DNA of 64,000 nt from Antedon mediterranea (Eukaryota > Animalia > Echinodermata), in the NCBI RefSeq assembly GCF_964355755.1, contig NC_092670.1, positions 9,352,201 to 9,416,200 on the forward strand. Reading direction: 5' to 3'. The notes beneath the pieces were generated by a model that had not been told where the DNA came from, searched no databases, and saw nothing but the letters and a program-made list of their open reading frames with translations. Numbering within the stretch: position 1 is the first letter of the stretch; each line of letters opens with the position of its first letter. Shown here one piece after another: positions 25,778 to 60,524 of this stretch. The position numbers and the translations under genes are program-made.

Positions 25778-26647
25778 AGGGTACAACTCAATCTTCTCAC
25801 TCGAAACGGTAAAGAACGCAAAAATAAATGGACAAGAAATGGACAGAGCCATGTGGGGTCATTAAAACTGAATTGGACTGGGTCATTAGATAATGAGGAA
25901 ACTAGACAATTGGCCAATGGGACCCAAGAATCTAGGAGGTTGTTTTGAATACCGGCATACTAAAAACTGTCAATTTTAGGGGTTTATCACATGATCGATG
26001 TATTAAATGAATAAAAATATTAAATAATAGAATAATAAGACTTAAATTTTTTGTTAAAAGTTGAGAAAGTCGACATTTTTTTCATCCAATTTTCGAAAAA
26101 TCCTTGTACTACAGTACATGAATTTTGTTTTTTAAAACACGGTAAATTCGACTACAATATGTATGTTGTATTAATCGTTAGTTCTTTTAATATGACGAGA
26201 CGTTTTTTGTTGTGTTTTTAGGGTGTGAACAATTGTCAATCAAAATTGTATATATATGTTAAATACTATGTAACTATTTAAAAAACCCACCCTGACTTCT
26301 GATTGGCCAACCATATTCCAAGTAGTTTGTCAGTCAGCCTTTTTCAAAAATGTAGACAAAATTACCGTTAGCTTTGTCTGGGGCTTTTTTTCTAGGCCAC
26401 ATGGTATCATAGGATATGTGTAACTGTAAGAGGAGTAACTGAAGGTTACTGGATAATAACCTCTATAGTATGAGTTATTATCAAAATATATTATTAGAAT
26501 TGGTGGAATGAATTATTTGATTCACATCAAAATGAATTGTAGTGGAATTGCTCTTGAAATAAATATAAAATAGTTGAGAATTTACACTACTAAGGAAATA
26601 GTCTTGACAAGAATATAGAATTCACCATTTAATGTACACTCAACTGC

Positions 26648-26825
26648 AAAAGTTTCCCCCTCTGCTTTTTTTGTAAGGGCTTGGGACCTTCAAATACAAA
26701 GTGCAATGAATGATATAATGTAAATTATAATGTAATAATTAAAACTGAATGTAATTTATAAAAATTACAAAATAATTTACAACATTAATCATTGCTCTTT
26801 GGATTTGGCAGCATTAAAAACTTTT
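26648..26825 (-). ncRNA. Twister ribozyme (type P1) in the transposase 3' UTR, copy 1
   Basis: Minus strand: AAAAGUUUU-U^AA-UGCU-GC-C[long P3]G-AAGG-UCCCAAGC-CCUU-ACAAAAAA-AGCA-GAGGG-GGAAACUUUU. P1, P2, P4 and both pseudoknot pairings are satisfied. Predicted cut between 26816 and 26815. Confidence 0.9.
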
Positions 26826-27011
26826 TTTTTTTATTATTATTATTAACTTTACTGCACATTCAGAATACCATTAGATATGGTGGCCCAATGGCCAAATTGC
26901 ATAAAATACAAATATTTTGTAAAGAGTGAATATAAAATCACAGAACAAATAAAAATTGAAGATATACGAAACAGTATAAAAACTATCCATGGCTACAACA
27001 ATCATTTGGAA

Positions 27012-30000
27012 TCATTCTTTTTGCTGCTTTTTTTTCCTCTCTTGACGAAGGCGACGGATGGCAACCATAGCCGATTTCCATTCTTTAAAAGTCACATCAG
27101 ATGTTGCAGCACAATACCAATTTCCATAGTACTGAGTGTGGTTCTTATTTAATCTTGGTTGCTTACACTTTGAGCACACAATCGCAGACGTTCTTGGTTT
27201 GTATATTTTGATCGGTTTCCCTTCCGATATGTCTTTAGCCACTCGTTTTCTGTACAAGAGGGTAGTTCTAGGAATACGAGTACTGCTAGCCTCAGGGACT
27301 GATGGTGGTGGTCTGTTTCTTAGAGTCGCTAGGCCGGAAGTGTTTTTCGGTAGGACAAATGTGAAAGATGGAGCGCTTGTATGAACGTTTAGCACCGCTG
27401 GCTTGGTTAAAGGTTCAAGTAGGGTTTTATCAGAGACAAGTTTGGGTATTGTTGCCGAGATGCCAGATTCCAACACTTGCCGCTCTTGCTTCTTTGACGT
27501 TCTGTTGTACCTGTTGAAAATAAATCAAACACAGTATTTAAAAACTTTAATGTATTTACTGTAGCGTAAAATAACAATCAATAACAAGTAAAAACTCACC
27601 ACTGGATGAGTGTCGTACGATTTATCTCCATCAACTGAAGCTTAGCAAACAACATCAGGTGTCCATTCGATAGCACTTTCCGACGAATGTTCTTGTAGCC
27701 TTTGGTAATGAGCGGCCAGCGCTGGAAACGTTTACCTTCGATAGATACGGTAGATGGATACGCTTCACATAGTTTTGTAATAATGCACTCCATATATCGA
27801 TTGCAGTCCGGCCACTGAGCTGGCCCGGTGTTCTGACCTAAGAAGCATCTTTTAAAAAAAAAACCAAAGAAACAAGTTAGATTTAAGACACATAATGCAA
27901 CAAAGTAAAAAAACGCTGGAAACTGCCTTACCGTCGAGTGCTTTCGACACCAGGTATTACGGAAGTAGTTTTACTTTTCTTGAACCTGCCTTTCGTCAGG
28001 TAATCTTGATGCCGTGCTTTGCGCTTAATGGTTTTGTCATAAGCATCCAGGTTGTTCCACAACTTTGCGACATGTTCAGCATGACTTTGACTTATCACTC
28101 CACTGTCTTCCTTAAACTGCATAAGGTAGTCTGCCAGGGCTTCAACTTTGGCGTAGCCTGGAATGTTGTCCGGTCCAGTGGAATCCTCAAGTTCCTAAAT
28201 TGTAAAATATGAAAACAAAATATATAATCAGACTCGTGCATTGTATTTCAAAACAGAAACAAAATTTGTGAGGTAGAAGCTAATGATACAAATTTAACTC
28301 ACTGTGTCAAAAAGGGCTGCTTTTCCTTCACCATCATCATCATTATCGTCACATGAAGGCAAGGGCTCCAGCTGGGGTGGTGAGGGTTCTTTAGCATTTC
28401 GAGGTTTAAAACAACGCTTAGGTGGTTTGTAGTCTGGTTGAGTCTTGTCATCATACCCTTCATCAACATCAAAAGTGTAAATTTCTTCATCAAAGTCTTC
28501 ATCATAAATGGTATCTGTTTTGACAGGAAATTGAGTTTCGAGCACTTTGTTCGACTGGTTGTACAGGTACTCCACTCCGATGAGTTCTCCAGTGTACTTG
28601 TTTGGAATGATAAAACTTTTGTACACTTTTTTGCCAATCACTTGCTCTGCCAGTATGTTGAGAGCATGCTGATGCAGTCCACTATATGTACTGGAGATGG
28701 GTCCTCCAGACTGGGTAGCGGCTAGTGCACGGTTTGCATTCCATCGAACAAGTCCATCCATCAGGTAAGCTTGGAAATGTAAGTCGCTAGCACGCTCACC
28801 TGAGAAAAAAATAAAACATCCATAATAATGAAATAATACAAAAATCTGTAGATCGGTTTGAAGATTTGGTAGATACCAAATAAAAAGTAATACTGTACCT
28901 GGAATAAACCTGTTAAGGTGAAGATGAAACGATTCCAAAGAAGTGGAGCCTCTTGCGCAACGATATACTGGCAAGGTAACTCCACCCTTAAGCATCTCAC
29001 TGGTTTTTGTGTAGAGCGGGATGCCTTCTGGATCCTGGATGCAGGCGATGTGTCGCTCTTGTGAGCTCCAGATATCCCAGGTCTGTTCAGAGTCTAAGAG
29101 TGGGACGCCCATTGTGTCACGGCCTTCTTCACCATCGAGGGAAGTCAGCAGCTCTCGGATTAGGTTGGCAGTCTCGCGAGTCCCTCGTGTTGTCCTGCGA
29201 CAATGTAAAGCATACTCCTTCTTGCTGATGTTTTTCAATATGATGTCGTCTGTTGGGTTGGAATGCTTCTTGCTTGCAATGAGCTGTTCACGCTTGGCGA
29301 GCTTCAGACGTTCAACATCGTCAGCGCTCCACTCAAAAATGCAAGCGGAAAGACGTTTGAGAAATATCGGATACAACTGATGTGATTCTGTTGAACAAGC
29401 TGCAGCAATTCTCCTCATGAAGTGCCAGATGTCCAGACGAATTTTCATGTCAGGCCAGGCGCTGAACATCTTCCTTATGCTTGAATGACCGCAGCAGTCA
29501 CGGTCGACGTAGAGAATCTCGGGAGGAGGTACGCCTGCCAAAGCATATCGGTTAATGATGCCGTTTGTCATGTTGTTTAAGCCACATCCTTCTGCAGCAG
29601 TCAGGACTGTAATGAGCACCTGGCCGTACTCATTTCCGACGTTTGTTGCCCACACTCCTGTTCCACATGCACGACCGGCTAGCTTCCTTACAATCTGCAA
29701 AAAAACCCAAACAAATTTATTAGGAAGAAAGCTTCCCCACAATCTGCAAAAAAAAAAAAATTCAAATAATTAAAAGTAAATTGCAGAAATAGTATTGTTT
29801 ATAAATTATTTACCCTTTTGGTCGAGTCAATCTTCAACACTCTTCCGAACGTCGATGTGATAGAAGCCTTGAGTTCGTCGATTCTTCCCATTACTTCGTT
29901 GCAGTAGATGGTAAGGAACCATTGGACAGAGGGAACAGGAATCATTTTAGACACCTCATCAAATTTAGAAGCAGCAATGACATAATCATCACGAGAACCA

Positions 30001-30082
30001 CAGAACTTCTTGCAATTTTCTAAGTAGAGAGCCACTCTCTCATTCCACCGCCTTGTGTGTTGTTCTAAGACTTGTTGGCGAA
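27012..30082 (-). pseudogene. Dada-type DDE transposase, 3' two-thirds only
   Basis: Spliced exons with LKIDSTK, LYVDRDCC, LDIWHFMRR and RGSTSLESFH. The 5' exons are missing, and the last exon has a 33-bp in-frame deletion relative to copy 2. Confidence 0.85.
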
Positions 30083-30207
30083 TTCATTTCAGTCTTACAT
30101 AGTAATGTGAAAATACAAAGTGTTGTACATTTCGGAGTAAAAATCTAAATATTGCTATCGTAGATGAAAAACTTGTTTCCTGATGCACTGTATGTGACTC
30201 ATCTGTA

Positions 30208-30605
30208 TACAAAGAAAAGAAAACATTGAAAAATTTACGGTAAAAGGCTGGCAGCAGTTTTGCCAAGGAAAAACCGTAAAATACATGGTTATTTTTGGAA
30301 AACCGTAAATTCTTTAACAGTTCACTGTAATTTAATTTACGGGAAACTGTTTTAATACAGTCTACTGTAAATTATTTTAAATTTCAATGTAATTTTGTTT
30401 ACAAAATCCTGTAAATTGAAAATTTTTTTTACAGTATATTGTAGAACAAAATACAATTAACCGTAAAATAAATTACAAACAAATGTTAGTTTTGCGGTTT
30501 TTGACCGTTACACAATTTACAGTTTAACCGTAAATTTTACGGGTTTTCCTTGGCAAAACTGCTGCCAGCTTTTTACCGTAAATTTAACAATTTTTTTTTA
30601 CAGTG
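30208..30605. mobile_element. CACTG-ended (EnSpm/CMC-like) foldback MITE
   Basis: Right end ..ttttttttACAGTG. Arms aaatttacggtaaaaggctggcagcagttttgccaaggaaaa / ttttccttggcaaaactgctgccagctttttaccgtaaattt. The left terminus is degenerate. Confidence 0.7.
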
Positions 30606-31217
30606 TAAGCGTCCAAATCTTCAAGCGGTAAACAACTGCGTACGAAGTCTGCAGTGAAATTACTGTAGCGTGAAAGCTGCGAACACTGCAGTTTGTGCAC
30701 TGAATTAAACTGTATAGTGTACCTCTTATTAAGCTAGGGATTATCATACAGTTTACTAAATATTTAGGGCTAATCATTGGTTGCGGTGTTAAAATTCCTG
30801 GAAACATTTGTGTGAACAAAACTAGATCGAATTGCTGTCATGAGTACTGATTTGTTGGGCCGTGATTTCAGACGCCTAAGTTATCTATCTAGACTTATTT
30901 TTTCGAATAAATGTACGTACCTATCAGATACACTTGTCTTGTGTCGTATAACAAATAAATACTGTAATAGTTACTGAAGTTACTATTACAACCTCGTCAA
31001 TAAAAAAACAAATATGTACTGTATATGTTTATTCACCTATTTTTGAAAACGCATACTATAAAGTTTCCTTTGTCTATAAAATGACGTAATCATCATAATG
31101 CACATTGTTTACAGGAGTAATTAAAAACCAAATTGTAGTTGGAGAAAAGAAACTACGAAGCATGTTTATGTTATGTTGTGTGCCGTTATGTTTTCACCAT
31201 TGACAGCCATTGGAGTA

Positions 31218-31287
31218 GAGCTGTATCATAGAGGTTGGTGTTTGCCTTCCAATCCTAAGGTCCGTGGTTCAATCCTGATTTAGTGCC
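31218..31287 (+). mobile_element. Degenerate tRNA-like (Gly-TCC-like) SINE head
   Basis: ..tgccttccaa..ggttcaatcc B-box; the stems do not close into a cloverleaf. Confidence 0.35.
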
Positions 31288-31294
31288 GCCATAT

Positions 31295-31850
31295 CAGTGG
31301 TGGCGCCAGCGGGGGGGGAAAGCTGCCCCCCCCCCCCCCCCCCCCCCGTCGGGGAGTATTGGCCATATTTGTCGGGGAGAAAAATATGATCATTTCTTTT
31401 CTGGTAAAAAATAAAACCATATTAAGTGTACTACTATATATTTTAAGTAACTGCGGCATTCCATTTTTGACGTACGTACGATATACTGACAGCGAAGTAA
31501 ACAGTATGACGTGGTACGCATTTGTCTGGCGGTGTCTCTTTGTACGAATCTTTCATGGCTCACTGCGGTATACGCGTCGACATATCTGGGCTGTATCATA
31601 TTACATCCAGGGACCAAAATGTTTATTTTTCAGATTCCAGGCGAAAATCGAAAATTCATTTGCAACTACGCATCGACGTACGTTCATACAGGGATAAAGG
31701 TACTAGTTATGTTCTCACGGTTGAGTTTACGAATTGTTTCAATTTACCAATTACCCTTGGTGTACCGCGTATATATGTTCGCTGTCGATTAAAGGCGTTT
31801 GGGTGGGGGTTCGATTGGGAAAAGGAAGCGGTTGGCCCGAACCATAAAAC
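31295..31850. mobile_element. Truncated hAT-like non-autonomous element related to 33998-35824
   Basis: CAGTGGTGGCGCCAGC terminus. The internal ggtacgcatttgtctggcggtgtc.. is homologous to ~35424-35660. No right TIR seen. Confidence 0.55.
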
Positions 31851-31879
31851 AGGGTCTGGTCACGTTTCTTTTCGCGCAT

Positions 31880-32214
31880 AAATCTCGATCTAGGGTAGAT
31901 GGGTGAATAGGGTGTCTAGGGAAAAAAAAGATGCACCAACCGGATTCGACGCACTTGACTCTTTTAATTAAGAAGAGTAGGCTAGAGCTATAGTTGTGTA
32001 AATAGGCCTACATAGTGAAAGAACTATTTATGAATTCAAGAGTTTAAAAAGAAAACGCAATTTAAAATCTTCGGAAAATACCCACAACTGAGTTATTTTT
32101 AAAACACATGCACTCCCACTACCAGCATCACGTTGTCTTAGCTCGCTCCTCGTGTGAATGCTGACGTCATCACTCTCCAAAAATACACCATTTTCCGCCC
32201 TGGTCCGTGCGCAA
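31880..32214 (-). mobile_element. Possible orphan terminus of a further Dada-like element, ending in GCGCAA
   Basis: Ends ..tggtccgtGCGCAA immediately before copy 2 and has TGACGTCA ~45 bp inside, like the CRE-bearing right ends of copies 2 and 3. It is otherwise not alignable to them. Confidence 0.4.
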
Positions 32215-33084
32215 AGGGTACAGCTCAATCTTCTCACTCGAAACGGTAAAGAACGCAAAAATAAATGGACAAGAAATGGACAGAGCCATGTGGGGTCATT
32301 AAAACTGAATTGGACTGGGTCATTAGATAATGAGGAAACTAGACAATTGGCCAATGGGACCCAAGAATCTAGGAGGTTGTTTTGAATACCGGCATACTAA
32401 AAACTGTCAATTTTAGGGGTTTATCACATGATCGATGTATTAAATGAATAAAAATATTAAATAATAGAATAATAAGACTTACATTTTTTGTTAAAAGTTG
32501 AGAAAGTCGACATTTTTTTTATCCAATTTTCGAAAAATCCTTGTACTACAGTACATGAATTTTGTTTTTTAAAACACGGTAAATTCGACTACAATATGTA
32601 TGTTGTATTAATTGTTAGTTCTTTTAATATGACGAGACGTTTTTTGTTGTGTTTTTAGGGTGTGAATAATTGTCAATCAAAATTGTATATATATGTTAAA
32701 TACTATGTAACTATTTAAAAAACCCACCCTGACTTCTGATTGGCCAACCATATTCCAAGTAGTTTGATAAGTTAGCCTTTTTCAAAAATTTAGACAAAAT
32801 TACCGTTAACTTTGTCTGGGGCTTTTTTTCTAGGCCACATGGTATCAAAGATTTGTGTAACTGTAAGAGGAGTAACTGAAGGTTACTGGATAATAACCTC
32901 TATAGTATGAGCTATTATCAAAATATATTATTAGAATTGGTGGAATGAATTATTTGATTCACATCAAAATGAATTGTAGTGGAATTGCTCTTGAAATAAA
33001 TATAAAATAGTTGAGAATTTACACTACTAAGGAAATAGTCTTGACAAGAATATAGAATTCACCATTTAATGTACACTCAACTGC

Positions 33085-33261
33085 AAAAGTTTCCCCTCTG
33101 CTTTTTTTGTAAGGGCTTGGGACCTTCAAATACAAAGTGCAATGAATGATATAATGTAAATTATAATGTAATAATTAAAACTGAATGTAATTTATAAAAA
33201 TTACAAAATAATTTACAACATTAATCATTGCTCTTTGGATTTGGCAGCATTAAAAACTTTT
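33085..33261 (-). ncRNA. Twister ribozyme (type P1) in the transposase 3' UTR, copy 2
   Basis: Same core as copy 1, with a 9-bp P1 AAAAGUUUU/GAAACUUUU. Predicted cut between 33252 and 33251. Confidence 0.92.
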
Positions 33262-33447
33262 TTTTTTTATTATTATTATTAACTTTACTGCACATTCAGA
33301 ATACCATTAGATATGGTGGCCCAATGGCCAAATTGCATAAAATACAAATATTTTGTAAAAAGTGAATATAAAATCACAGAACAAATAAAAATTGAAGATA
33401 TACGAAACAGTATAAAAACTATCCATGGCTACAACAATCATTTGGAA

Positions 33448-36400
33448 TCATTCTTTTTGCTGCTTTTTTTTCCTCTCTTGACGAAGGCGACGGATGGCAA
33501 CCATAGCCGATTTCCATTCTTTAAAAGTCACATCAGATGTTGCAGCACAATACCAATTTCCATAGTACTGAGTGTGGTTCTTATTTAATCTTGATTGCTT
33601 ACACTTTGAGCACACAATCGCAGACGTTCTTGGTTTGTATATTTTGATCGGTTTCCCTTCCGATATGTCTTTAGCCACTCGTTTTCTGTACAAGAGGGTA
33701 GTTCTAGGAATACGAGTACTGCTAGCCTCAGGGACTGACGGTGGTGGTTTTGCTATCTCGCCAGGAACTGGGATCGACGGTCTGTTTCCTAGAGTCGCTA
33801 GGCCGGAAGTGTTTTTTGGTAGGACAAATGTGAAAGATGGAGCGCTTGTATGAACGTTTAGCACCGCTGGCTTGGTTAAAGGTTCAAGTAGGGTTTTATC
33901 AGAGACAAGTTTGGGTATTGTTGCCGAGATGCCAGATTCCAACACTTGCCGCTCTTGCTTCTTTGACGTTCTGTTGTACCTGTTGAAAATAAATCAACAG
34001 GGCCGTAGCCAGGATCTGTCAAGGGGGGGTTCGCACACTAAGTATTTGGGTCACCCCACCCCCATACCTACCCCCCCCCCCCTCCTGGGGTGGGGCCTGA
34101 GGCGAAGCAAATTTTGTTAAATGACACCCCTAGATGGCCGGAAAAGACACTCTCATGCAGCATGCTACCAATGATGAGCAAAACGATCGTACTTTGACTC
34201 GTGGACTATTTAAACGATAACATTTGTTGCCGTATGTTAGATGCGCGTGCTCTGTGCGGAACCGCCGATTGTTAGATCATTTACTCGATATTTTGTTTTG
34301 CGTTCAAGTTCAATGCGAACGTACGTCTAGGAGAAGCCCCAAAAAAAGCACACTGGGTGAAGGAAAATACAATTCTTATTATAGCTCTATCTATAATATT
34401 TATTTACAGCAATTTGTTGAGGAAATTAAATATGCCAATGTAAATAGGTGATATTGATACATTTGAGTACGTATCGGCGAAGCAAATTTTGTTAAATGAC
34501 ACCCCTAGATGGCCGGAAAAGACACTCTCATGCAGCATGCTACCAATGATGAGCAAAACGATCGTACTTTGACTCGTGGACTATTTAAACGATAACATTT
34601 GTTGCCGTATGTTAGATGCGCGTGCTCTGTGCGGAACCGCCGATTGTTAGATCATTTACTCGATATTTTGTTTTGCGTTCAAGTTCAATGCGAACGTACG
34701 TCTAGGAGAAGCCCCGAAAAAAGCACACTGGGTGAAGGCAAATGCAATTCTTATTATAGCTCTATCTATAATATTTATTTACAGCAATTTGTTGAGGAAA
34801 TTAAATATGCCAATGTAAATAGGTGATATTGATACATTTGAGTACGTATCGGCGAAGCAAATTTTGTTAAATGACACCCCTAGATGGCCGGAAAAGACAC
34901 TCTCATGCAGCATGCTACCAATGATGAGCAAAACGATCGTACTTTGACTCGTGGACTATTTAAACGATAACATTTGTTGCCGTATGTTAGATGCGCGTGC
35001 TCTGTGCGGAACCGCCGATTGTTAGATCATTTTACTCGATATTTTGTTTTGCGTTCAAGTTCAATGCGAACGTACGTCTAGGAGAAACCCCAAAAAAAGC
35101 ACACTGGGTGAAGGAAAATGCAATTCTTATTATAGCTCTATCTATAATATTTATTTACAGCAATTTGTTGAGGAAATTAAATATGCCAATGTAAATAGGT
35201 GATATTGATACATTTGAGTACGTATCGGCTGGTGGTCTAGAAAAAAATAATCGGATGCCATAATGTGAACTACAGTACATGATACCATTATAGTGTAAAA
35301 TATTAATATTCACTATAATCCTCTATGATACATTATACTTCATAGCCACACATAAATACTGATGTATGTCGGAAGGCTATATACTTTATGCATGCTGCCT
35401 GACTGCCAGTGATCTAAACAATTGGTACGCAGTTGTCTGGCGGTGTCCTTTCCTTTGTACGAAACGTTCGTCCCCCAGCTCGCTGTGAGACGCGTCAATA
35501 TCATGTTGAATGCAGGGACCAAACATTTATTTTTCAGGTTAAAATCGGCAATTCATTTGCAACTCTTAGAAATTTACAGACTATATCGCTCGAAGTACGC
35601 TCATACAGGGAAGAAGGTACTGTATGAGTTATTCCGAACGAGTTTACGAATTTTTTAATTTACGAACAACTTTTTGTACTGTGGGGCACGTATTTGGACG
35701 ATTTTCGGAGATGAGGGTGAGGTATTGGGCATGTCGGGGATGGGGGTTCGCAGTCGGTTAAGGGGGGTTCGCTGTAAAGGGGGGTTCGCCCGAACCATAA
35801 ACACCCCCCCTGGCTACGGGCCTGATATCAAACACAGTATTTAAAAACTTTAATGTATTTACTGTAGCGTAAAATAACAATCAATAACAAGTAAAAACTC
35901 ACCACTGGATGAGTGTCGTACGATTTATCTCCATCAACTGAAGCTTAGCAAACAACATCAGGTGTCCATTCGACAGCACTTTCCGACGAATGTTCTTGTA
36001 GCCTTTGGTAATGAGCGGCCAGCGCTGGAAACGTTTACCTTCGATAGATACGGTAGATGGATACGCTTCACATAGTTTTGTAATAATGCACTCCATACAT
36101 CGATTGCAGTCCGGCCACTGAGCTGGCCCGGTGTTCTGACCTAAGAAGCATCTTTTTTAAAAAAAACCAAAGAAACAAGTTAGATTTAAGACACATCATG
36201 CAACAAAGTAAAAAACGCTGGAAACTGCCTTACCGTCGAGTGCTTTCGACACCAGGTATTACGGAAGTAGTTTTACTTTTCTTGAACCTGCCTTTCGTCA
36301 GGTAATCTTGATGCCGTGCTTTGCGCTTAATGGTTTTGTCATAAGCATCCAGGTTGTTCCACAACTTTGCGACATGTTCAGCATGACTTTGACTTATCAC

Positions 36401-39880: not shown

Positions 39881-41088
39881 ACTGTACTGTCTATTGAACA
39901 CCTGCAAAACTAAAAAACCTGATCAAAGGCAAAAATATATGTAAGTAAAGTATGTGAAAAAAGAAAATTTTACCCGTATAATGCCACTGTGCACCGTGCA
40001 GTTGTAGTAAATGGCTGTAAATAAAAGAAATCAAATCTAAATAAAATAAAATATCTGTGGGTTAAAATTTCTCAAGTAATAATTAATAGTAGACCAAGAC
40101 TTTAAATGTAAAATATTAATAAAATGAATTACATATAGCATTAAAACATATCTACTAAGAACAAACTATTTTATCTAAATTAAATTAAGAAAATATTACA
40201 TATGAATAATTATGTTTTTTTTTCAATTAAAAAAAACTATATAAAGAATTACAACATAAATTAGAGTAAATTGAATAATCTTTGTTTATTAAACAGTGTA
40301 TGTATCAACTCTTTGATCCCTGAGCACTTCCTTTAATGCAATCAAATTATTTGAGAATCTTATCTAAATCCACAAATACAGTTGATTGCCTAATTAAACG
40401 AATGCTTTAGATCAAAGAGTTGAAGCCTACACTTAATTAAACAATCATTATAATAAAAGTTAAATTGTTTATCTATCAATTAAAAGGGTTGACATGTGAA
40501 CAAGGCTTTAGTCTGTTTCCCATGGATGCTATTCTGATACAGCACACATTTAGTTTTTTATAGTTTAAAATTATGTTTAGGCCTAAAATCTATTACAGGG
40601 TACATAGGCTAGTCTAACTAGTAGTAGGATTGTTAAAATATTAAATAAATTAAACTTTAAAGAATAGCTTAATTACTTTAAACTAAATTTATTTACTATG
40701 GGATGGTTCTACGATAAATACTAATCTAAGCCTAGGCCTAGTCTAAACTACTGTAGTAAGTTTTGAAGAAAAAAAATAACAGAGAGCCCTAAGTAGGTAG
40801 CGTCTTACTAGGGCCTAGCCCTTACAGGCCCATGGTTTGACTTACAATTCATGGCAACCAAAAAAGATCTAGGCCTACCTAGTCCTAGAGGTCTTTCTAT
40901 CTAGCCTACTAGCTAGGCCTAGGCTATATAGTAAAGGCATGCGTTATTGTTAATACTTTATGAAATATATGAAGGCCTATTGGTAATTAGGGGGATAAGT
41001 AATAATAGCAAATGCATTTTACCAAACACAGAGCAGACTACCGCCAACAAGAATTAGCGTCGGCACCCATACAAACACATTTGCTAGG

Positions 41089-43317
41089 CCATGGCATAGT
41101 TTCTACGCCGTGGTTAGGATTCCGGCACCGGAACTCAACTGCCCAGCGTTAGGGAATCCGACACGCTATTGCGCATGCCCAGATCGAGGTAATCGGCGAC
41201 TCTATACCAAAGATTGTATAGCGGCGCGCGATTTTTTTTTCCGTACGAGAGTTCCTCCATCGGTTCGTTTCGGACTCAATCGACTCTTCGGTAAGCCACC
41301 GATGCGTGACAGCAACCACAAGACAAAACGTGAGCAGCTTTTTTGCACGAGTGACAGATTTATACATACTAGAGGCCTAATACTATACTCACTGTAAATA
41401 TAATAATAAATATTAATAGTAGTACTGAACGTCATTGTAATAATAATAATATGCCTAGAATTTTAATAATGTAATACTGTATAGGCAGCCACAAACCAAT
41501 GTATGTACCATCAGATTCACAAACAGTAACACACACACAGCAGCAGCACTTTGTTGGTCGTCACAAGCAAGGCCTAGCTAGCCTAGCCCTACGTACGTGT
41601 GCTTCAATGTAGTACATTTCCATCTACTGTACTATTTTTTATTTTAATAAAATGAAGTAGTAGGTTAGAAATTATATGTACAAAAGTAACACTAGCAGAT
41701 GTTTTTATCAAGAAAATTACAATTTTCTTCAGGTTTTTAAGTGTAACATTTGAAAAATTGTATACAGGCCTAGTATTTAGTAACATGTATTCTTGTAAGT
41801 TGATGTATAGAAACACATGCTTGCTTATAAATATAATAATTGATGATAGTATCACATATAATTATAAGCTTCCTGGAAAATGTGTTATTATTAAATGTAT
41901 TTGTACTATTGCAGTCGTGTCAGTAACGTAATTGAATGTTTTTTACTTTGCATGTATTTTTTATGATTTTCCAAATTACATATACACATAATAAACAATA
42001 ATATTAGTTGTAGGTCTATAACTTAATTAAAACTCCAAAATTGCCTATTATTAAAAGTCTGAACTTCTTTTTTTCAAGATTGGGGATAATTAATACGTAC
42101 ACCTTTAACGTAAAATTTCCATTACCTTACAATATAAATATTAATTTAATAATATTATTTTAAAAGGTATAAAAAACATACACTGTGCATAGGAATTCCT
42201 TAATACCTTGCATATAGGCTTACACAAGCTTGGCTAGGCTAGCTACAGGCTAGCTACAATACCATAAACGATAAAAGAGCCTCTCTACTCGTTCGTGACA
42301 AAAGGTCGTTGGAACAACTTCAAAAAATAATATCTGATACGACCTACTATTGGGTCGTAGACCTAAATATCTCCAATATGCTATTGGGTTCTTAATGTAA
42401 TTACTAAGTAGGCCTAGTATTTATTAATTAATGTCATCAAAACACGTATTAGTGTAGATTCATTTTACTATTGTGAGAGCCTGTGTGAAAGTAAGCTCGC
42501 GGTTTGTAAATGTAAATTGTATTATGTTGTCACGCATCAGTGAGCTGACTTTACCGAATACCGAAGAGAGTCGATTGAGTCCGAAACGAACCGATGGAGG
42601 AACTCTCGTACGGAAAAAAAAATCGCTAGCGGCGCTATTATAATCTTTGTCTATACTTTTCAACAGCGATGGATCATTTCATAGCTACTAGCCTAGATGC
42701 CTATAATACGGGATCCACTAATCTAGGATAGGGCTACCAGTTAGACGTGACCAGTGGGGCCTATTTATTTTGTAATTAAAAAGTGGTTGCTTCATTCATA
42801 TATAAACTTCATATCATTATGAATTATATAATTACATGACTAGTTTATGATTTTTCATAACGCATTATACTGTATACGGTACATAACAACATGCAATCAC
42901 AAGTTGATTTGTTGACGGCAGCAACCGCGTGGATGTGAAAAAACTGTTCGGGAAGTCAGGGTCGCAACGCTAAAAACAGCATTACGATTCTTAGATAGAT
43001 ACTGATACTTATTAATATCATTATGATTATTTTAACGCGTGGCGTAGTATTATTTTAATTATTAATTCATTCATTCATGTATGGCATAGGCCAAGTTTCA
43101 TCCATCGCTCTCTCCCCCGCGCAACGACTATCTAGGCTACAGTAAATCCCTATAACACTCCGACTCTCGGCGGTGGTGTGGTGTGTGTGTGGCAAGCAGC
43201 TATAATTCACTTCCCAGAGCTCTGGGCATGCGCAATAGCGTGTCGGATTCCCTAACGGTGGGCAGTTGAGTTCCGGTGCCGGAATCCTAACCACGGCGTA
43301 GTTTCTATTGACTATGG
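41089..43317. mobile_element. Non-autonomous TIR element (~95-bp TIRs) in a 5' intron of copy 2
   Basis: ctacgccgtggttaggattccggcaccggaactcaactgccca..gcgcatgcccaga is inverted at 43221-43301. CTAGG lies on both flanks (41084-41088, 43318-43322). Confidence 0.8.
41203..42655. mobile_element. Second TIR element nested inside 41089-43317
   Basis: ~110-bp inverted arms (cgattttttttccgtacgagagttcctccatcggttcgtttcggactcaatcgactc), with TATA at both extremities. Confidence 0.7.
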
Positions 43318-43559
43318 CTAGGCCTAGGCCAAACAAGTTATCAACACTTTAAATGCCGATTTCAAGCATGAAATCAATTTCGCTCTTACCTTTAATGCAA
43401 GTACACGTTCGAGTTGAATACAGCTACTACCAGAATTCGCCTTGAAATTAATAATAATAAGTCTAGAGGATTTGTAAAAAGATGTTGTCGCATGTAAGTC
43501 TCTGGACAAAATCTCATCATTGTTTGTGTTGTGAAAAACTTGTTGAAGTCACATATTAA

Positions 43560-43700
43560 TTACGTCACTTTTCAGTGTTCTGATTGGTCAAAATGACAAA
43601 TTTGGAACAATTTTTCTAATGCTCTGATTACGTCACTTTTCAGTGCTCTGATTGTTCAACTTTTGGAACGCTTTCCGCTGCTCTGATTGGTCAATCAGTT
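43560..43700 (-). promoter_or_regulatory. Putative Pol II promoter of copy 2 (CCAAT boxes and CRE-like TGACGTAA)
   Basis: Repeated tgattggtca and ttacgtca upstream of a non-coding first exon (donor near 43389); conserved in copy 3. Confidence 0.6.
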
Positions 43701-44359
43701 GTTCAATTCATTGTCCAATTCTACAGCACATATTGGGTTATTTGTAGCGCAAATCCACGGCCCGATCTTCTCTGTCAAAAAAACAAAAAAACGCAAAAGA
43801 AATTGGAACGGTCCGCGTGGGGTCATTAAAAAGTCGTGTGGGGTAATTAAATTTTCATGAATAAACATGAGCAATGTCTGTGAGGGGCCCCGTTGCAGGG
43901 AAATGCTCGAAAATAATTCCCTGTTAGCTAAACTTTAAGAAAAGTTTTTACTTTTGAAAAAAAGAGAGGGCGGGCTTTACACTGCTTTTGCTAATAATTC
44001 TTTTTGATAGGTTTATTGTGTAACAGGATTTATTTATTTAAACAACAAAACATACCCTGTGTACTACGGTACAAAGATTTTTTGTTGGAAAAATGTGTTG
44101 TAACTAGGATTTTTTAATATAATCAACAAAAATCATACAGTTATTATTAATAATTATTTATTTTTATTTAAGAAAAGTTTTAACATTTAAAAAAATATAT
44201 ATATATATATACTATACACTGCTTTTATTAATTGTTTGGTAGGAATATTATGTAACCAGGATTTATTTAAACAACAAAACATACCCTGTACTATAGTACA
44301 AAGATTTTTTGTTGAAAATGTGTTGTAACATACAGTATTTATTAATTTATTTTTATTCT

Positions 44360-44645
44360 AAAAAGTTTTCCCTCTGCTTTTTTGTAAGGGCTTGGGACCT
44401 TCAAATACAAAGAGCAATGATTTGAGAGTAAATTATTGTTAATCATTTAAAAGGTAATTATTTTCCCTCTGCTTTTTTGTAAGGGCTTGGGACCTTCAAA
44501 TACAAAGAGCAATGATTTGAGAGTAAATTATTGTTAATCATTTAAAAGGTAATTATAATAATAAACTTTAATTATTTTCTTACAAATTACAGAATTCACT
44601 ACTTTAATCATTGCTCTTTGCATTCGGCAGCATTAAAAACTTTTT
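44360..44645 (-). ncRNA. Twister ribozyme (type P1) in the transposase 3' UTR, copy 3, with duplicated 3' half
   Basis: UAAUGCUGCC..GAAGGUCCCAAGCCCUUACAAAAAAGCAGAGGG core with a ~20-bp P3 stem. A 95-bp tandem duplication supplies two 3' halves. Predicted cut between 44635 and 44634. Confidence 0.9.
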
Positions 44646-44924
44646 TTTAGTGTCGTGCAGTGACTGGACATCAATTCCGCAGAATCAATTCCAAGTTTTG
44701 ATGGCATTTCCTCCACCAAGGGTATTACAGACACGATATACCCAAATTCGGGTGTACGGGGGACACCCATTCCAGGTTTTTATACACCGCCCAGTATTCG
44801 GTGTTGGCGATAGCTGGCTGTACTGTCCGACACCCGAAGATGCCACGCCACAGTAGCAACAAAGTTGGCCAGACACTCGGCTAAATTCTGTCACATACAC
44901 ACACTATTTCCGCAAAGTCAGAAT

Positions 44925-47900
44925 TTATTTCTTCTGCTGTTTACGGAGGCGACGTTGAGCAGCCATAGCAGTTTTCCACTCTTCCATGGTTTGATTTGAC
45001 TTAGCAGCACAATACCAAGTCCCGTAATACTGAGCGTGGTTTTCCATCAGTCTCGGTTGTTTGCACTGAGAACACACACTCACTGATGTTCTTGGCTTGT
45101 AGCGTTTTACTTGTTTACCTTCAGCTATTCTGTTCGCTGCTTGTTTCCTGTAGTAGGCGACGCTTCTAGGTATCGGTGTCTCTACAGGAAGGCTGCTGCT
45201 GCTACTGGCTGCAGGGGCAGATGACGTAGAAGGTAGTGGTGGTATTGCCATCTTACCCGGTGGAACTGGAATTGACGTTTTGTTCCTTACTGTCGCTTGC
45301 CCAACAGTGCTCTCTGGCAGGACAAATGTGAATGATGGAGCGATCGTCGACGTGTATAGCACTGCTGGCTTGATCAAAGGTTCGGGCAAGGCTCTAGAGG
45401 TGACAAGCTTGGGTTTGATTGCAGATATGCCAGATTCCAAGACTTGCCGCTCTTGCTTCTTCGATGTTCTGTTGTACCTGTTGAAAATAAGCAAAATAAT
45501 TGAAAATGAGATTGTATTTATAGCAAAAACACCACCACCACCACAGAAACAGAAAGTAAGAAACTTACCACTGTATCAGTGTGGTACGGTTTATTTCCAT
45601 CAACTGAAGCGGAGCAAACGACGAAAGGTGTCCGTTCGTTAGCACTTTGCGACGGATGTTCTTGTAACCCTTGACGATGAGGGGCCAGCGCTGCGATCGG
45701 TTGCCTCCGACTGAGATGACGGTAGATGGGTAGGCTTCACACAGTTTTGTTATAAGGCACTCCATGTACCGATTGCAGTCTGGCCATTGGGCTGGTCCGG
45801 TGTTTTGACCCAAGAAGCATCTGTAATATTTAAAAAGAATATTGTATTAACATTTGATTACATTAACATCAACTCGCATCCATCACATCAACCAACAAAT
45901 TGAACAAAAAGTAGGAAACTGTCTTACCGTCTAGTGCTTTCGACACCTGGGATTACTGTCGTTTTACTCCTTTTGAACCTGCCCTTGGACAGGTAATCTT
46001 GATGTCGTGATTGGCGTTTGATGATTTTGTCAAAAGGGTCGAGGTTGTTCCATAGCTGTGTAATCTGCTCGGCTTGAGTTTTACTTATGACCCCACTGTC
46101 TTCTTTGAACTGGAATAGACAGTCGGCCAGGGCTTCTACCTTTGCATACCCTGAGATGTTGTCCGGTCCTGCAGAATCCTCGAGCTCCTGTAATTGTTTT
46201 GAATGTGAATTTTTTAAATGTTTTCCGTATATTTATGACACTCAAAGGGAAGAGGGAAAAACCAAAAAAAAAGTAAAAGAACAGAACAAACTCATTGTCA
46301 ACAGTCATTCATTAAAAATATTAGGGTTATATAAGAGACAAGTTCCTTAAAAAATGAAGAGACAAACAAAATATATGTATATACACAATATAATAATATT
46401 GATTAAAAAAAAACTACTTACAGTGTCGATAGGAGCTGCGTCTTCTTCAGCATCACTACCATCATGTGATGATGGAGGCTGCTGCGGGATCGGCGAGGGT
46501 TGCCTAACTTCCGGAGGCGCACGATGATGACGTCCACCCAATCGGCGAAGTGATGGAGGTTCGTAGTCCGGTTGAGTTTTGTCATCATACCCTTCGTCAA
46601 CATCGAAAGTGTACACTTCTTCGTCAAAGTCTGCATCGTCACTTTCATCATCTGAAAAGTGAGTTTCGAGTACTTTGTTCGTTTGGTTGTACAAGTACTC
46701 GACTCCGATGAGCTCCCCGGTGTACTTGATCGGAAGGACGAAACTGTTGTACAACTTCTTACCAAACACTTGCTCTGCCAGTGTGTTCAGGCCATGCTGG
46801 TGTAGCCCACTGTATGTGTTGGGATGTGGGGCTCCAGACTGTGTGGCAGCTACTGCCCGATTTGTGTTCCATCGCACAAGTCCATCCATCAGGTAAGCCT
46901 GAAAGTGAACGTCGCTAGCACGCTCACCTGTAAAGCAAAACCAAAAATGATTGTTAAAAAACAATAAGTAGTTCCATCGTACAAGTCCATCCATCAGCTT
47001 GGAAATGAAAATCAACCTGTTAAAAAAAATTATTGTTAAAACAGCAGTTACAGTTTCATCACACAAGTCCATAAATCAGGAGGCTTGGAAATAAAATTGT
47101 CAGCATGCTCACCTGTTAAGTAAAGTGGAAAATAAGTAGATATCAAATAATAATGAATACCTGGAATGAACCTGTTGAGGTGAAGATGGAACGATTCCAA
47201 GGAAGTGGAGCCTCTTGCACAACGGTAGACTGGTAAGGTGACTCCACCCTTGATCATCTCACTGGTTTTAACATAGAGCTGAATGCCTTCTGGGTCCTGA
47301 ATGCAGGCAACGTGTCGCTCTTGCGAGTTCCAGATCTCCCAGGTACGGTCAGAGTCCAAGAGTGGGACGCCCAACGTGTCGCGGCCTTCTTCACCATCGA
47401 GCGAAGTGAGGAGTTCTCGGATCAGGTTAGCTGTCTCCCGAGTTCCTCGTGTAGTTCTGCGACAATGCAAAGCAAACTCCCTCTTGCTGATGTTTTGCAA
47501 GATGATGTCATCTGTCGGGTCGGAGTGAGCTTTGCTGGCGATGAGCTGTCCACGCTTGGCACGCTTCAGGCGCTCAACATCTTCAGCGCTCCACTCAAAA
47601 ATGCAAGCGGATAGACGCTTGAGAAATATTGGGTACAGCTGGTGCGATTCTGTTGCACAGGCTGCAGCAATTTTTCTCATGAAGTGCCAGATGTCCAGGC
47701 GAATATGCATGTCGGGCCAGACGCTGAACATCTTGGTCATGGTTGAACGTCCACAGCAGTCACGATCAACATACAGAATCTCTGCGGGAGGTACGCCAGC
47801 CGAGGCATATCGGTCGATGATGCCTTGGATCATTTTTTCCACACCACATCCTTCTGCAGCAGTCAGGACCGAAATGAGCACCTGGCCGTGCTCATTTCCA

Positions 47901-49083
47901 ACGTTTGTTGCCCATGCCGCTGTTCCAGAAGCGTAGCCGGCTAGCTTTTTGACAATCTGTTAAAAAAAAAAAAAAAGGCTTATATATTTAATAAGTGAAT
48001 AAACAGAAATATTAAATCTTCTTGACCACAAATCTGAGAAGGAAAAAAAATGATTAACAAGTAATGAAAGGAATGTTAAAGCTTCAACACAGCACATCTG
48101 CAGAAAAAAATAGTGAATTGAATAAACAAAACAAGAAATGTAATGTAGAAGACAAAAAATGCATTGTTAATGAAATGGTATGTTTCTACTGTGTTGCTTA
48201 CTTTTTTGGTCGAGTCAATCTTTAACACTCTCCCAAATGTTGACGTGATTGAAGCCTTGAGCTCGTCGATTCTTCGCATTACATCGTTGGAGTAAATGGT
48301 GAGGAACCACTTGACAGAGGGCACTGGGATCATTTCTGATACCTGGTCGAATTTTGGTGCAGTAATAAGACCACTGTCACGAGCATCACAGAACTTCTTG
48401 CAATCTTGCAAATAGAGAGCCACTCTCTCGTTCCACCGTCTTGCATGTTGCTCCAAGACTTGTTGGCGAAGCTGCGAAGGGCTGTTGCCAAATCCGCGGT
48501 ACTTGAGGAGCTGCAGCACCCGGTTGTCGCATGCTAGGCGGTACGAAAGTACAGCGGGGAACTGGAGTCGATGTGGTAAATCAAGTTGTTCCAATATGTT
48601 GTTGCTCCAGCCGATTTGTTTTGCGTGGCAATTAGGGCACTCCAGGTACTCCGTTGCGAGTATGTAGTGGCAGTCTAAGTCCAGGACCAGACGAACGTGT
48701 CTGTAGAGACCGGCAGATGTGAGTGGCCGGTTCTTGCATCCTGGTCGAGTGCAGACTAGCTTGATTAGCCAGATCTTGCGTGGCATCCAAAGAAGGAGAC
48801 GATGGCCGAAGTAGCTTCTGGCTTTTGGTATGTTCTTGCAGAGCAAATCCGGTTTTGGTGGGTCGAACCACATTTGCTTGAGTTTGGTAGAATCCAACTC
48901 TGCAGTCCCCTTCTTTGATTCCTTGAATAAGGCTTTGGAAATCCACTCTTGGTCAATCTCGGACAAAGTCTGTTTCCATCCTTCTGGTACAAGGCAGTCT
49001 GAAATAAAATTTGACACTATAATTTATACAATAAAATCAAATAAATTCTTTAACCAAATTAAATAACATTAAATGGTTAGTCA

Positions 49084-49124
<41 letters not shown>

Positions 49125-49363
49125 TCAGTCAGTCAGTCAGTCAGTCAGTCAGTCAGTCAGTCAGTCAGTCAGTCAGTCAGTCAGTCAGTCAGTCAGTCAG
49201 TCAGTCAGTCAGTCAGCCAGTCAGTCAGTCAGTCAGTCAGTCAGTCAGCCAGCAACTGAATTATACACTATTCATACATTAAACTGAATTGTTGGTTTCA
49301 AAATAAACAAAACATAAATAAATAATTACCTTGCCCCTTTGACCAAGAGACTGTCGTAGGCAT
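44925..49363 (-). CDS. Dada-type DDE transposase, open spliced frame of 1065 aa; exons 49330-49363, 48202-48998, 47161-47956, 46422-46927, 45928-46187, 45569-45820, 44925-45477
   Basis: No stops or frameshifts found by manual splicing. Motifs LKIDSTKK, LYVDRDCC, LDIWHFMRK and RGSTSLESFH; Cys cluster C-x4-C..CPNC; C-terminal CSQC..H..YC. The start codon is inferred because the large first coding exon of copy 2 is missing here. Confidence 0.78.
49078..49250. repeat. (AGTC)n/(AGCC)n microsatellite in a transposase intron
   Basis: About 43 tetramer units. Confidence 0.95.
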
Positions 49364-51869
49364 AGTATTAGCAGGTTCTGTAGATGCACTTGGTTGGGCT
49401 AGGTTAATCAATTTGTCAAAGAAAATTTGTCAAAGAAATGTGTTAACAACATTAATAAATCTACAGAAATACCTGTTCTTTACACAGATAGCAGATAGCA
49501 TTTTTTTATATTAAAACAAAAATACATATAGCAGTATATATAATGCATCAGTAGCCGAATGTTAATAAAGGTGCAGGTAAAGCTTACAGTGAATAATGAA
49601 AAAAAAACAAAACAAAAACATTTTCAGACAAGATGAACACATGACAAAACAAGTATAAATACATAATACATATATGACAAAATAAGTAAACATACATACA
49701 AAACAAAACAAGTATAAATACATGAGAAATGATGTAGTTTTTAATAGGCATAATAGCATGTTGTTTTTAATTTGTTTTTTAATGCAAAAAGTACTTTAAT
49801 GAATAAATCAAAAGAAAATAAAAAACATGGCAAGTAGACAGGGTTTTGTCTAACTACAAGAGATACTGCAAACAAAGCATATTTTCTATTTTGTTTTCTA
49901 CCACATATACTTACCAATGCAAAATGAAAGATTGGTCGCAACATCTCCAAACCTGCAAAACTTAAAAAAAAAACAGATCACGTGCAAAAATGTATGTGAA
50001 CAAAGTAAGTATAAACAAAAGAAATGTTACCGTAAATATTGATGACTCGGTGAAAAGCCAGTTGAAGTGAATGCTAAGTGGTAAAAAGAGAAAATATAGA
50101 TTACTTTTAGAGCTACCACATAATTTATAGCTCTAGCTTAAATGAAAAATTGTAAGTAATTTAAAAATAAACTACTTTCTTTTGTCATTGTTGGTGCACC
50201 ATGAATTTGGGTGCAATAAACTCTGGTAATAATTATTATATGTGTGACCTTGATATAAAAACACATTGAATATTTATTCAATTATTATTATGTTACTAAT
50301 ACTAATTAAATTATTACATAAAGCTACTTCTATTCTAAAACATATTTATAAAAGGTTAATAATTGTATAAATTGATTCTACCTTACAGTCACTAAATTAG
50401 ATATTAGTAATGTTATATAAACTTTGCAGAAAAAAAATGGTGTTTACAAGACTTATGTGATAGTAATTAGAATTAAATTCTAGGGATTATAACTTGATAC
50501 ATGACAGCTGTCTTTGTTTACATACCTTGCCTAGCCTATGCCCAAAGTTTATGAGGTGTAGGTATATAAGACCTTGATATAAAAACACATTGAATATTCA
50601 TTTAATTGTAAAATGTTAATAATACTAATAAAATCATTACATTAAAAGCTACTTCTATTCTAAAACATAATTCTAAAAGGTTAATTAATTGTAGCCTAAA
50701 ATTGATTGTACTTACAGTCACTAAATTAGATGTTAGTAATGTTATATAAACTTTGCAGAAAAAATGGTGTTTACAAGACTTATGTGATAGTAATTAGAAT
50801 TAAATTCTAGGGATTAAGATAACTTAATACAGGACAGCTGTCTTTGTTTATATTCCCAAAAGTTTATGAGGTGTAGTCATGAGATAAGACCTTGAATATT
50901 TAACTAACTGCATTTACTTAATAAACTACATTCAGATATTCAGATAAGATAATATTTATTTAGACAATAATGAATGAATATATACAAAATAGAAAAAAGA
51001 TATTAAAGTGAACACATAGATAGATAAAGCAGTAATTGATAGTCATTATTATCATGGATCCCTTATAGAAGTTAAAAACTTGTCTCGTAGGGACCCACAA
51101 CAAAACACATTACTATAAAAAAATAAATAAACCTAGAATATATAATTATATAATTTAGGATAAAAAATTACAGTATAATAACATAACTAACATCTTCTTT
51201 ATAAAAATTATTTAAATTATATTTCAATAGTTTCATATAAATGAAATAAATTACATTAAAAACAAATTAATAAACAAAAACTAAATAAACAATAACAGGA
51301 GAAGAACACTTTCAGTCTGTCACATATAGACTAGGCCTAACTTCTATCTATTCTAGCCTAGCTAGGCCTCTTTTCCTCCTAGCAGCTAACTAAGAAAAAC
51401 GGCCTATTTTATCATTTTAATTTAATTGAATTTGTAGGCAAACAAAAATATGACAAAAAATACACTAACAGAAAACAATTAACAGAAAACAACGCCCACA
51501 ATGTATTCATTTTTTTTAAATTAACTAATTAAGGCGACGAACTCGGCCGTACTAGGCCTGGGCGCGGCCGACAGCCAGGCCGCGAACGTGCATCGGGACC
51601 GATAACACGTCTCTCGCGGAGCTGATCATATATTTGGCCATACTTTAAACGCCCGTTTTTTGACTAAAATCAATTTTTTTTTCCTACCTTGAATACAAGC
51701 AAACGGTTGCAGGATACTACAGCTTCTAGATGATGACCTCAAATAGGATTGCGCTTAGAAAAACGATTGAATTTAGAGAGCGTTTAGAACGAGATGTTGT
51801 CACAGATAAATCTGATCAAAATCTCAAAGAAAAACCTCGCGGTCCCCTCAATCTCAACTTTCTAGTTGC

Positions 51870-51990
51870 ATTACGTCACTCTTCAGCGCTCCGATAGGTT
51901 AACAATTGAAACACTGACTTTCCATGATCGTGATCTGATTGGTCAATAACCTGTTCAATTTGCCGTGAACGTCTGCGATTGGTTAACAAT
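51870..51990 (-). promoter_or_regulatory. Putative Pol II promoter of copy 3 (CCAAT boxes and CRE-like site)
   Basis: ttacgtcact, tgattggtca and gattggttaa; homologous to 43560-43700. Confidence 0.6.
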
Positions 51991-52043
51991 TGAAACATGA
52001 ATTGAAACAATAAACCTTGCATAATGGGTTAAAGTGAGCGCAA

Positions 52044-60512: not shown

Positions 60513-60524
60513 ATAGCTCTATAA

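What the first reader, a model, noticed from the sequence alone, without database searches (positions are those of the whole stretch)
25778..52043. 26-kb head-to-tail train of Dada-like transposons lodged in a satellite, not in a small-RNA gene
Seen: three same-orientation, TIR-less transposase elements (plus a possible fourth remnant) are flanked on both sides by the same satellite. No U6, U1 or intact tRNA sequence lies at either outer junction; after the final GCGCAA comes tagtacaggg, not U6 GGATGACACG. Known: Dada (Kojima and Jurka 2013) is the target-specific DNA transposon superfamily that inserts in U6/U1 snRNA and tRNA genes with 6-7-bp TSDs. Inference: this lineage either uses a satellite as a new multicopy safe-harbour target or was captured by a U6-mimicking off-target site.
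Basis: partly seen in the sequence, partly recalled or inferred. Interest (0 to 1): 0.8.

Follow-up and report, generated by a model that had tools for sequence, protein, structure and literature searches.

The report
Dada transposons retargeted to satellite DNA
Two related Dada DNA transposons, a group known for inserting into small-RNA genes, sit here in tandem inside a palindromic satellite, and the junctions of other copies in the same animal suggest they likely use fixed sites in that satellite as a repeated landing spot in place of U6 genes.

Summary
The elements are Dada transposons, likely from a feather star (99% to proteins labelled Antedon mediterranea). There are two families. A has a truncated copy E1 (25778-30082) and a full copy E2 (32215-43746); B is E3 (43753-52037). 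Only E2-E3 is truly head-to-tail. The 2.1 kb between E1 and E2 is not Dada, so there is no fourth remnant. The window holds no U6, U1 or tRNA gene. Contigs from four runs of one sample show A right ends followed by GTACTA+A (4 of 4 runs), GCGCAT+A (3 of 4), GCGCAA+B (4 of 4) or GCGCAA+satellite centre (1 of 4). No U6 half appears among 12 loose-end rows. GTACTA and GCGCAT are the hexamers at two U6-like sites of the satellite unit, and E3's right end joins one of these sites to the base. So the satellite is likely a real, recurrent target. Limits: one individual; 16-20% of A right-end depth is unresolved; E1's left junction is 2 bp off register; E2's left end sits in a U6 mimic in another repeat. 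The predicted fold is closest to an IS256-family transposase, which suggests (untested) circle intermediates with 6-bp spacers.

The parts
23946..25777 (.). Left satellite array. Palindromic, MITE-like units of about 316-510 bp, each made of terminal inverted arms around 122-bp hairpin subunits; unit centres (cut points) before 24427, 24712, 25222 and 25540
   Evidence: one unit (54198-54513) folds at z = -22
25540..25777 (+). 238 bp directly repeated at 52044-52281 (2 differences). The two copies share a T variant in the second hairpin found in 2 of 8 units checked; possible long duplication at the outer junctions
   Evidence: one other unit pair (25222/53281) is equally close, so this is only suggestive
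25778..30082 (-). E1: truncated family-A Dada. Left end AGG-N11-TCTTCTCAC; 3' exons open for 856 codons; broken at 30082; no GCGCAA at its left junction, which is 2 bp off the satellite GCGCAT register
26048..26180 (.). Decayed copy of the satellite unit junction inside family A (also present in E2, centre near 32539)
   Evidence: 0 of 100 shuffles score as well
30083..32208 (.). Non-Dada mosaic of repeats; its right part is high-depth and ends in a U6-mimic site (12 of the last 14 bases match U6)
32209..32214 (+). GCGCAA at E2's left junction; the empty form of this site continues into other sequence in contigs
   Evidence: table 7 (3 of 4 runs)
32215..43746 (-). E2: full-length family-A Dada. 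Eight modelled exons (39903-33448), about 1,250 aa, one nonsense codon at 37526-37528
33998..35826 (.). MITE-like insertion (CAGGG...CCCTG ends, three 375-bp internal repeats) in E2's last intron; absent from E1
41103..43301 (.). Element with 81-bp inverted ends, holding a second one (41208-42649, about 90-bp inverted ends), in E2's upstream non-coding part
43747..43752 (+). GCGCAA spacer of the only true head-to-tail junction (A right end, B left end)
   Evidence: bridged by one contig in 4 of 4 runs
43753..52037 (-). E3: family-B Dada. Left end carries TCTTCTCTG (43766-43774). Six core exons (48998-44925) open for 1,053 codons with CCCC finger, D261, D329, DxxH, E519 and CCHC finger; lacks the exon for residues 1-187 of its relative P0137
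44277..44320 (.). Copy of the satellite-centre palindrome inside family B (18 of 20 bases match)
   Evidence: 0 of 300 shuffles; 1 of 100 shuffles
52038..52043 (+). GCGCAA at B's right end, standing where the satellite normally has GTACTA
52044..57467 (.). Right satellite array, starting exactly at a unit centre (CCCTGTACTA|TAGTACAGGG)

Best explanation
These are two sister Dada transposon families with U6-type ends, and they likely now insert again and again at two fixed U6-like sites in a high-copy palindromic satellite, which would build head-to-tail trains. Shown: the Dada motifs; the U6-type left ends; B's right end at the satellite centre; an A right end at the same centre in another unit; A-A junctions spaced by the two satellite hexamers GTACTA and GCGCAT. 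Inferred: the transposase reads the upstream half-site (CCCT-G.... or TTCT-GCGCA.). That half-site survives each insertion, so the next copy lands between it and the resident element and leaves the target hexamer as the spacer. GCGCAA at train ends would be an ancestral U6 hexamer carried along with the element, as published for Dada-tA. Specificity looks relaxed, not exclusive, because E2's left end used a U6 mimic in another repeat. The arrangement in this window is likely a composite of at least two loci joined by one-ended transposition or repair. More speculative: copy-out circles with a 6-bp end-to-end spacer, as in IS256-family elements, would explain how the hexamer travels.
For: (four runs, one sample), A right end followed by: GTACTA+A left end in 4 of 4 runs; GCGCAT+A in 3 of 4; GCGCAA+satellite centre in 1 of 4 (25 of 29 bases match the common unit start listed, so a different unit from the window's); GCGCAA+B in 4 of 4. 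None of the 12 loose-end rows is U6. The single contig over B's left end begins in A's right end in 4 of 4 runs. In the satellite unit, GTACTA occurs once per strand, exactly before the cut point, and only 5 hexamers begin with G after CT, among them GTACTA and GCGCAT. Both sites match U6 at 7 of the last 10 bases. Left ends follow the published Dada-U6 pattern and that of 7 of 7 U6-Dada junction loci from metagenomes. Family-A proteins lie on contigs of 8 different lengths among 15 listed members, so the family is dispersed. Tandem junctions that keep the target site are the known mark of double insertion (PMC5932611). The best fold match is ISCth4, an IS256-family transposase (Z 12.5, rmsd 3.8, 277 aligned; next family Z 9.0), whose junctions carry 6-8-bp flank-derived spacers (PMC7780238).
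Against: All four runs are one sample and may be the source of this assembly. Contigs drop rare variants, and depth is not copy number. A 33-bp record with GCGCAA plus two unseen bases holds 16-20% of A right-end depth in two runs and could be U6; 7 records were not shown. No A right end followed by GTACTA and then satellite (a plain target duplication) was seen. E1's left junction is 2 bp off register and matches U6 at only 4 of 10 bases. A left-end flanks were hidden by truncation (494 rows). Both families carry their own GTACTA palindrome, a second possible source of that spacer. A few founder dimers amplified by unequal exchange would give the same junction types.
Confidence: 0.6

Rival explanations
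1. The families still target U6. The satellite junctions come from a few off-target or one-ended events, and those dimers were later multiplied by unequal exchange or segmental duplication.
For: Left ends keep the U6-type subterminal motif; B matches U6 at 11 of 11 bases in inverted orientation. Train ends carry GCGCAA. One-sided non-U6 flanks without a duplication are published for Dada-U6 (PMC3706591 text and Fig S2). 16-20% of A right-end depth is unread. The A-B junction recurs with only 2 substitutions and 1 indel in 179 bases, as amplification of one dimer would give.
Against: No U6 half among 12 loose-end rows, and no separate flank for B's left end in 4 of 4 runs. Two families join the same satellite base in different units. 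Two different satellite hexamers serve as spacers. The 2013 paper found non-U6 flanks never at both ends.
Confidence: 0.25
2. The transposase has a loose consensus (roughly CT-G....) and no real satellite preference; the satellite is hit only because it is abundant and tolerated.
For: At least three site types are used (satellite centre, satellite hairpin, a mimic in another repeat). Satellite depth is over a thousand times that of the lowest-depth bin. One Dada-tV copy in a hAT element is published.
Against: Only two non-GCGCAA spacers were seen, both from the satellite unit. The 42-44 and 22% depth shares of these routes (rough) are more than scattered sites would give.
Confidence: 0.1
3. 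The satellite-bounded arrangement is a mis-assembly of repeats.
For: No contig was shown bridging 25777/25778 or 30082/30083. In 3 of 4 runs the listed contig starting at 30082 continues leftward into other sequence (9,644 pieces hidden).
Against: The A-B junction is bridged in 4 of 4 runs. A satellite-centre junction of the same type exists for family A. E1 and E2 differ by real substitutions and insertions.
Confidence: 0.05

Closest known systems
Dada-U6 (Kojima and Jurka 2013, PMC3706591)
   Same: No terminal inverted repeats; left end GCGCAA-AGG-N11-TCTTCT; GCGCAA hexamer at junctions; spliced DDE transposase with DxxH, CCCC and CCHC fingers; one-sided junctions to non-U6 DNA are known.
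   Different: No U6 at any junction seen here. The right-end CAGAGAAGA repeat is missing. Non-U6 flanks at both outer ends were reported as never seen. Spacers GTACTA and GCGCAT come from a satellite.
Dada-tA and Dada-tY (PMC3706591, PMC8869645)
   Same: Target switch in which an ancestral hexamer (GCGCAA for tA) replaces the target hexamer on one or both sides.
   Different: Their new targets are tRNA genes. Dada-tA proteins carry ELCCYRC where these have TLPVYRC (supplement passages read by eye).
Tandem Dada-U1A/U1B in zebrafish (PMC3706591 Fig S3)
   Same: Two Dada families head-to-tail with a 6-bp target hexamer between them.
   Different: Reported as two cases for U1-targeting families; here tandem junctions appear to be the commonest state of family A.
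Double-insertion tandems of R1 and P elements (PMC5932611)
   Same: A preferred target site is kept inside the tandem junction.
   Different: R1 is a retrotransposon in rDNA, and P uses a loose motif. Neither uses a fixed base in a satellite.
ISCth4 / IS256-family transposase (PMC7780238)
   Same: Closest solved fold. End-to-end junctions with 6-8-bp flank-derived spacers.
   Different: Bacterial, has terminal inverted repeats, prefers A/T-rich DNA without a fixed site. Circles were not tested for Dada here.

Membership tests
Dada superfamily | DDE triad with DxxH after the second D | tested here: met
   E3 model: D261, D329, D353xxH356, E519. D-D spacing is 68, as published for Dada-U6_DR; D-E spacing is 190 against the published 176. 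RNase H-type transposase fold predicted.
Dada superfamily | N-terminal CCCC and C-terminal CCHC zinc fingers | tested here: met
   C-x4-C-x32-C-x2-C (published x4, x34, x2) and C-x2-C-x8-H-x8-C (published x2, x9, x8).
Dada superfamily | Sequence homology to curated Dada transposases | tested here: met
   The stretch RCARGSTSLESFHLHLNRFIPG and the intron right after it recur in Dada families of PMC8869645 Dataset S1 (passages translated by eye). No alignment to Repbase entries was run.
Dada superfamily | No terminal inverted repeats; 6-7-bp hexamer at the junctions | tested here: met
   No end-to-end inverted hit in the self-comparison; GCGCAA on both sides of E2 and of E3. E1's left end lacks it.
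Dada superfamily | Insertion inside a small-RNA gene | tested here: not met
   No U6, U1 or tRNA in the window; none among 12 loose-end rows. Several published Dada families also have no assigned target (Table 1).
Dada-U6 lineage | Left subterminal TCTTCTCTG 14 bases from the hexamer | tested here: met
   B has 9 of 9 bases at 13 bases in the window and 14 in contigs; A has 7 of 9 at 14 bases. Dada-tA ends show a similar motif, so it is not exclusive to U6.
Dada-U6 lineage | Right subterminal CAGAGAAGA | tested here: not met
   A has 5 of 9 bases at that distance and B has no match (read).
Dada-U6 lineage | Copies flanked by U6 halves | tested here: inconclusive
   None seen, but 16-20% of A right-end depth and most A left-end flanks were unread.
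Dada-U6 lineage | Transposase groups with Dada-U6 in a tree | tested here: inconclusive
   Quick tree of 121 rows without curated anchors: A and B are sisters (SH-aLRT 99), join sea-urchin proteins (96) and fall outside the fish clade that bears U6-, tA- and tL-like motifs. Labels were inferred from motifs, and invertebrate Dada-U6 was not identifiable.
IS256-like copy-out/paste-in mechanism | Free circles with an end-spacer-end junction | not testable with these tools
   Only the fold match and chromosomal-looking junctions with 6-bp spacers are in hand.

The most novel reading that the evidence does not exclude
This crinoid Dada lineage has left small-RNA genes altogether and targets, to the base, a palindromic satellite of which both families carry a decayed copy near their left ends, so element and satellite may have evolved together. 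It moves through IS256-like circles whose 6-bp spacer records the previous target, which would explain the published but unexplained hexamer replacement of Dada-tA and Dada-tY.
Probability: 0.25. Interest if true: 0.82.

Novelty: new variant of a known kind. Interest (0 to 1): 0.63.

Why it matters
In the two Dada papers read, every family with defined ends is assigned a small-RNA gene target, apart from stray copies. A DDE transposon that has shifted to a fixed base in a satellite would show how this sequence-specific transposase changes target, which bears on Dada as a site-specific delivery tool. Apparently intact family-A proteins (about 1,250 aa, several copies) and three natural target sites make the recognition rule testable. 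The spacer types also give a direct handle on the open question of how Dada replaces the target hexamer.

Tried and rejected
No whole genome is held for this window, so a genome-wide table of flanks could not be made. A fourth Dada remnant in 30083-32208 was rejected. The 238-bp flanking repeat as a proven long target duplication was not accepted: another unit pair is equally close. The seven metagenome U6-Dada loci gave terminal patterns only; none had a transposase hit (0 of 7), so they could not anchor the tree. The satellite palindrome had 0 matches in viral contigs. Rfam's 17 weak miRNA matches all lie in the satellite hairpins, below the gathering scores. Four look-ups in earlier findings returned nothing. 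The careful tree did not finish, so only the quick tree is used. Pfam gives only DUF6729 for the transposases. A breakpoint from which E2 becomes identical to E1 was looked for and not found: differences run along the whole shared length.

Full report
Anatomy. Self-comparison and gene models give this order: satellite; E1 (25778-30082); 2.1 kb of other repeats; GCGCAA; E2 (32215-43746); GCGCAA; E3 (43753-52037); GCGCAA; satellite. E1 and E2 are one family (A). E1 is cut at 30082. E2 is complete but has one nonsense codon, a 1.8-kb MITE in its last intron and nested inverted-repeat elements upstream of the gene. E3 (family B) is open for 1,053 codons but lacks the exon for residues 1-187 of its relative P0137. 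The 2.1-kb spacer has no Dada protein hit and no likeness to either right end, so the fourth remnant is not real and only E2-E3 is head-to-tail. Rfam and ARAGORN find no U6, U1 or tRNA gene.

Identity. One exon of E3 found 535 relatives among 2,543 candidates; the best 120 were listed. The top hit is 99% identical and labelled Antedon mediterranea, and most carry DUF6729. The host is therefore likely a feather star. The clusters have 16 (A) and 5 (B) members, and the 15 A members listed lie on contigs of 8 different lengths. The motifs match Dada: CCCC finger, D-68-D, DxxH, E, CCHC finger; the D-E distance is 190 against the published 176. The peptide before a shared intron matches published Dada families (read by eye). 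An AlphaFold model of P0001 (pLDDT 81.5) best matches the IS256-family transposase ISCth4 (Foldseek E 8e-5; Z 12.5). The left ends follow the Dada-U6 pattern of Fig S2 and of 7 of 7 U6 junction loci from metagenomes. The right-end repeat is missing, and the quick tree does not place A and B with fish U6-like proteins. I file them as Dada but not as Dada-U6.

The satellite. Units are self-complementary (z = -22) and MITE-like (my inference). They meet at the palindrome CCCTGTACTA|TAGTACAGGG. E3's right GCGCAA is joined exactly at that centre, in the place of GTACTA. The unit has a second U6-like site, GGTTCT-GCGCAT. Each site matches U6 at 7 of the last 10 bases. E1's left end lies 2 bases past the second site, in a copy with a variant base.

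Other copies. Contigs of four runs, all from one sample, were laid on the E2/E3 junction. Of 12 loose-end rows, 4 come from an internal repeat, 4 are GTACTA plus A left end (4 of 4 runs), 3 are GCGCAT plus A left end (3 of 4), 1 is GCGCAA plus a variant satellite centre (1 of 4), and none is U6. One contig per run bridges A into B. Rough depth shares, which the tool warns are not copy numbers: 41-44% of A right-end depth leaves by a route other than GCGCA in three runs, 11-16% goes to B, 22% to GCGCAT-A in one run, and 16-20% is GCGCAA plus two unseen bases in two runs. Seven records were hidden. The two new spacers are the hexamers that insertion at the two satellite sites predicts. Laying on 25690-32270 showed the empty form of E2's left target in 3 of 4 runs: a U6 mimic (12 of 14 bases) inside another high-depth repeat. 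It did not show A's other left flanks or bridges at 25778 and 30083, because the tables were cut.

Mechanism. Shown: junction sequences, motifs and predicted fold. Inferred: the enzyme reads mainly the upstream half-site, which PMC3706591 and PMC8869645 also suggest. That half-site survives insertion, so copies pile up with the target hexamer between them, as in double insertion (PMC5932611). GCGCAA at train ends would be carried from an ancestral U6 site, like the replacement reported for Dada-tA. Against a plain duplication model, no A end followed by GTACTA and then satellite was seen. Copy-out circles with a 6-bp flank-derived spacer, as shown for ISCth4, would account for this, but that is untested. 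E2's left target and E3's right target differ, so this locus is likely a composite made by one-ended transposition or repair. The 238-bp flanking repeat with a shared variant fits this but does not prove it. Both families carry a decayed copy of the satellite junction near their left ends; I cannot say whether it is a binding site, a relic or the source of the satellite.

Literature. PMC3706591: parts 1-3 of 4 of the text and Figs S2-S4 read; its protein alignment file could not be opened. PMC8869645: parts 1-3 of 5, supplement searches, and supplement parts 1 and 107 read. PMC5932611 and PMC7780238: passages only. Searches returned no paper whose listing points to a satellite-targeting or echinoderm Dada, and 'satellite' has 0 occurrences in the 2022 supplement. 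Repbase and subscription reviews were not searched and could hold such a family. Published near-precedents are one-sided non-U6 flanks, tandem Dada-U1 copies and one Dada-tV copy in a hAT element.

Verdict. A new variant of Dada. A satellite target is the best reading (0.6), ahead of U6 targeting with amplified off-target dimers (0.25), a loose consensus (0.1) and mis-assembly (0.05). Interest 0.63.

Noticed in passing
window 57465-60152 (minus) and 6487-6649: An 833-codon reverse-transcriptase ORF (RVT_1, E 2e-35) ends the right satellite array; its (TTTTA)n-like tail at 57465-57627 is 91% identical to 6487-6649. Likely a non-LTR retrotransposon inserted in the satellite, which resumes at 60012-60501.
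   Followed up: partly
window 60517-61745 (plus): A second, broken reverse-transcriptase ORF (RVT_1, E 1e-32) directly after the third satellite patch.
   Followed up: no
window 32190-32214: The empty form of E2's left target continues into sequence that could pair back on it as a G+C-rich hairpin; from memory this resembles the 3' hairpin of Helentron-type elements. Not tested.
   Followed up: partly
window 41208-42649: The inner nested element has CA...TG ends and a 7-bp direct repeat (TCTATAC) on both sides, as P-like MITEs do (label recalled).
   Followed up: no
window 30200-30605: Short element with long inverted arms ending in TACAGTG, like a CACTG-type EnSpm MITE (label recalled); contigs covering it continue leftward into sequence not present here.
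   Followed up: partly
window 31512-31750 and 35423-35666: 67% similar segments in the inter-element spacer and in E2's intronic MITE; related non-autonomous families.
   Followed up: no
window 21865-23421: 362-codon plus-strand ORF without a Pfam match, next to a 42-bp tandem array (7.3 copies).
   Followed up: no
L001-L007: Seven metagenome contigs hold a U6 5' half joined to Dada-U6-like left ends of five different sequences, so more hosts carry Dada-U6; the hosts were not examined.
   Followed up: partly
window 49079-49252 and 50246-50895: An (AGTC/AGCC)n microsatellite and a 330-bp tandem duplication in E3's introns and upstream part.
   Followed up: no
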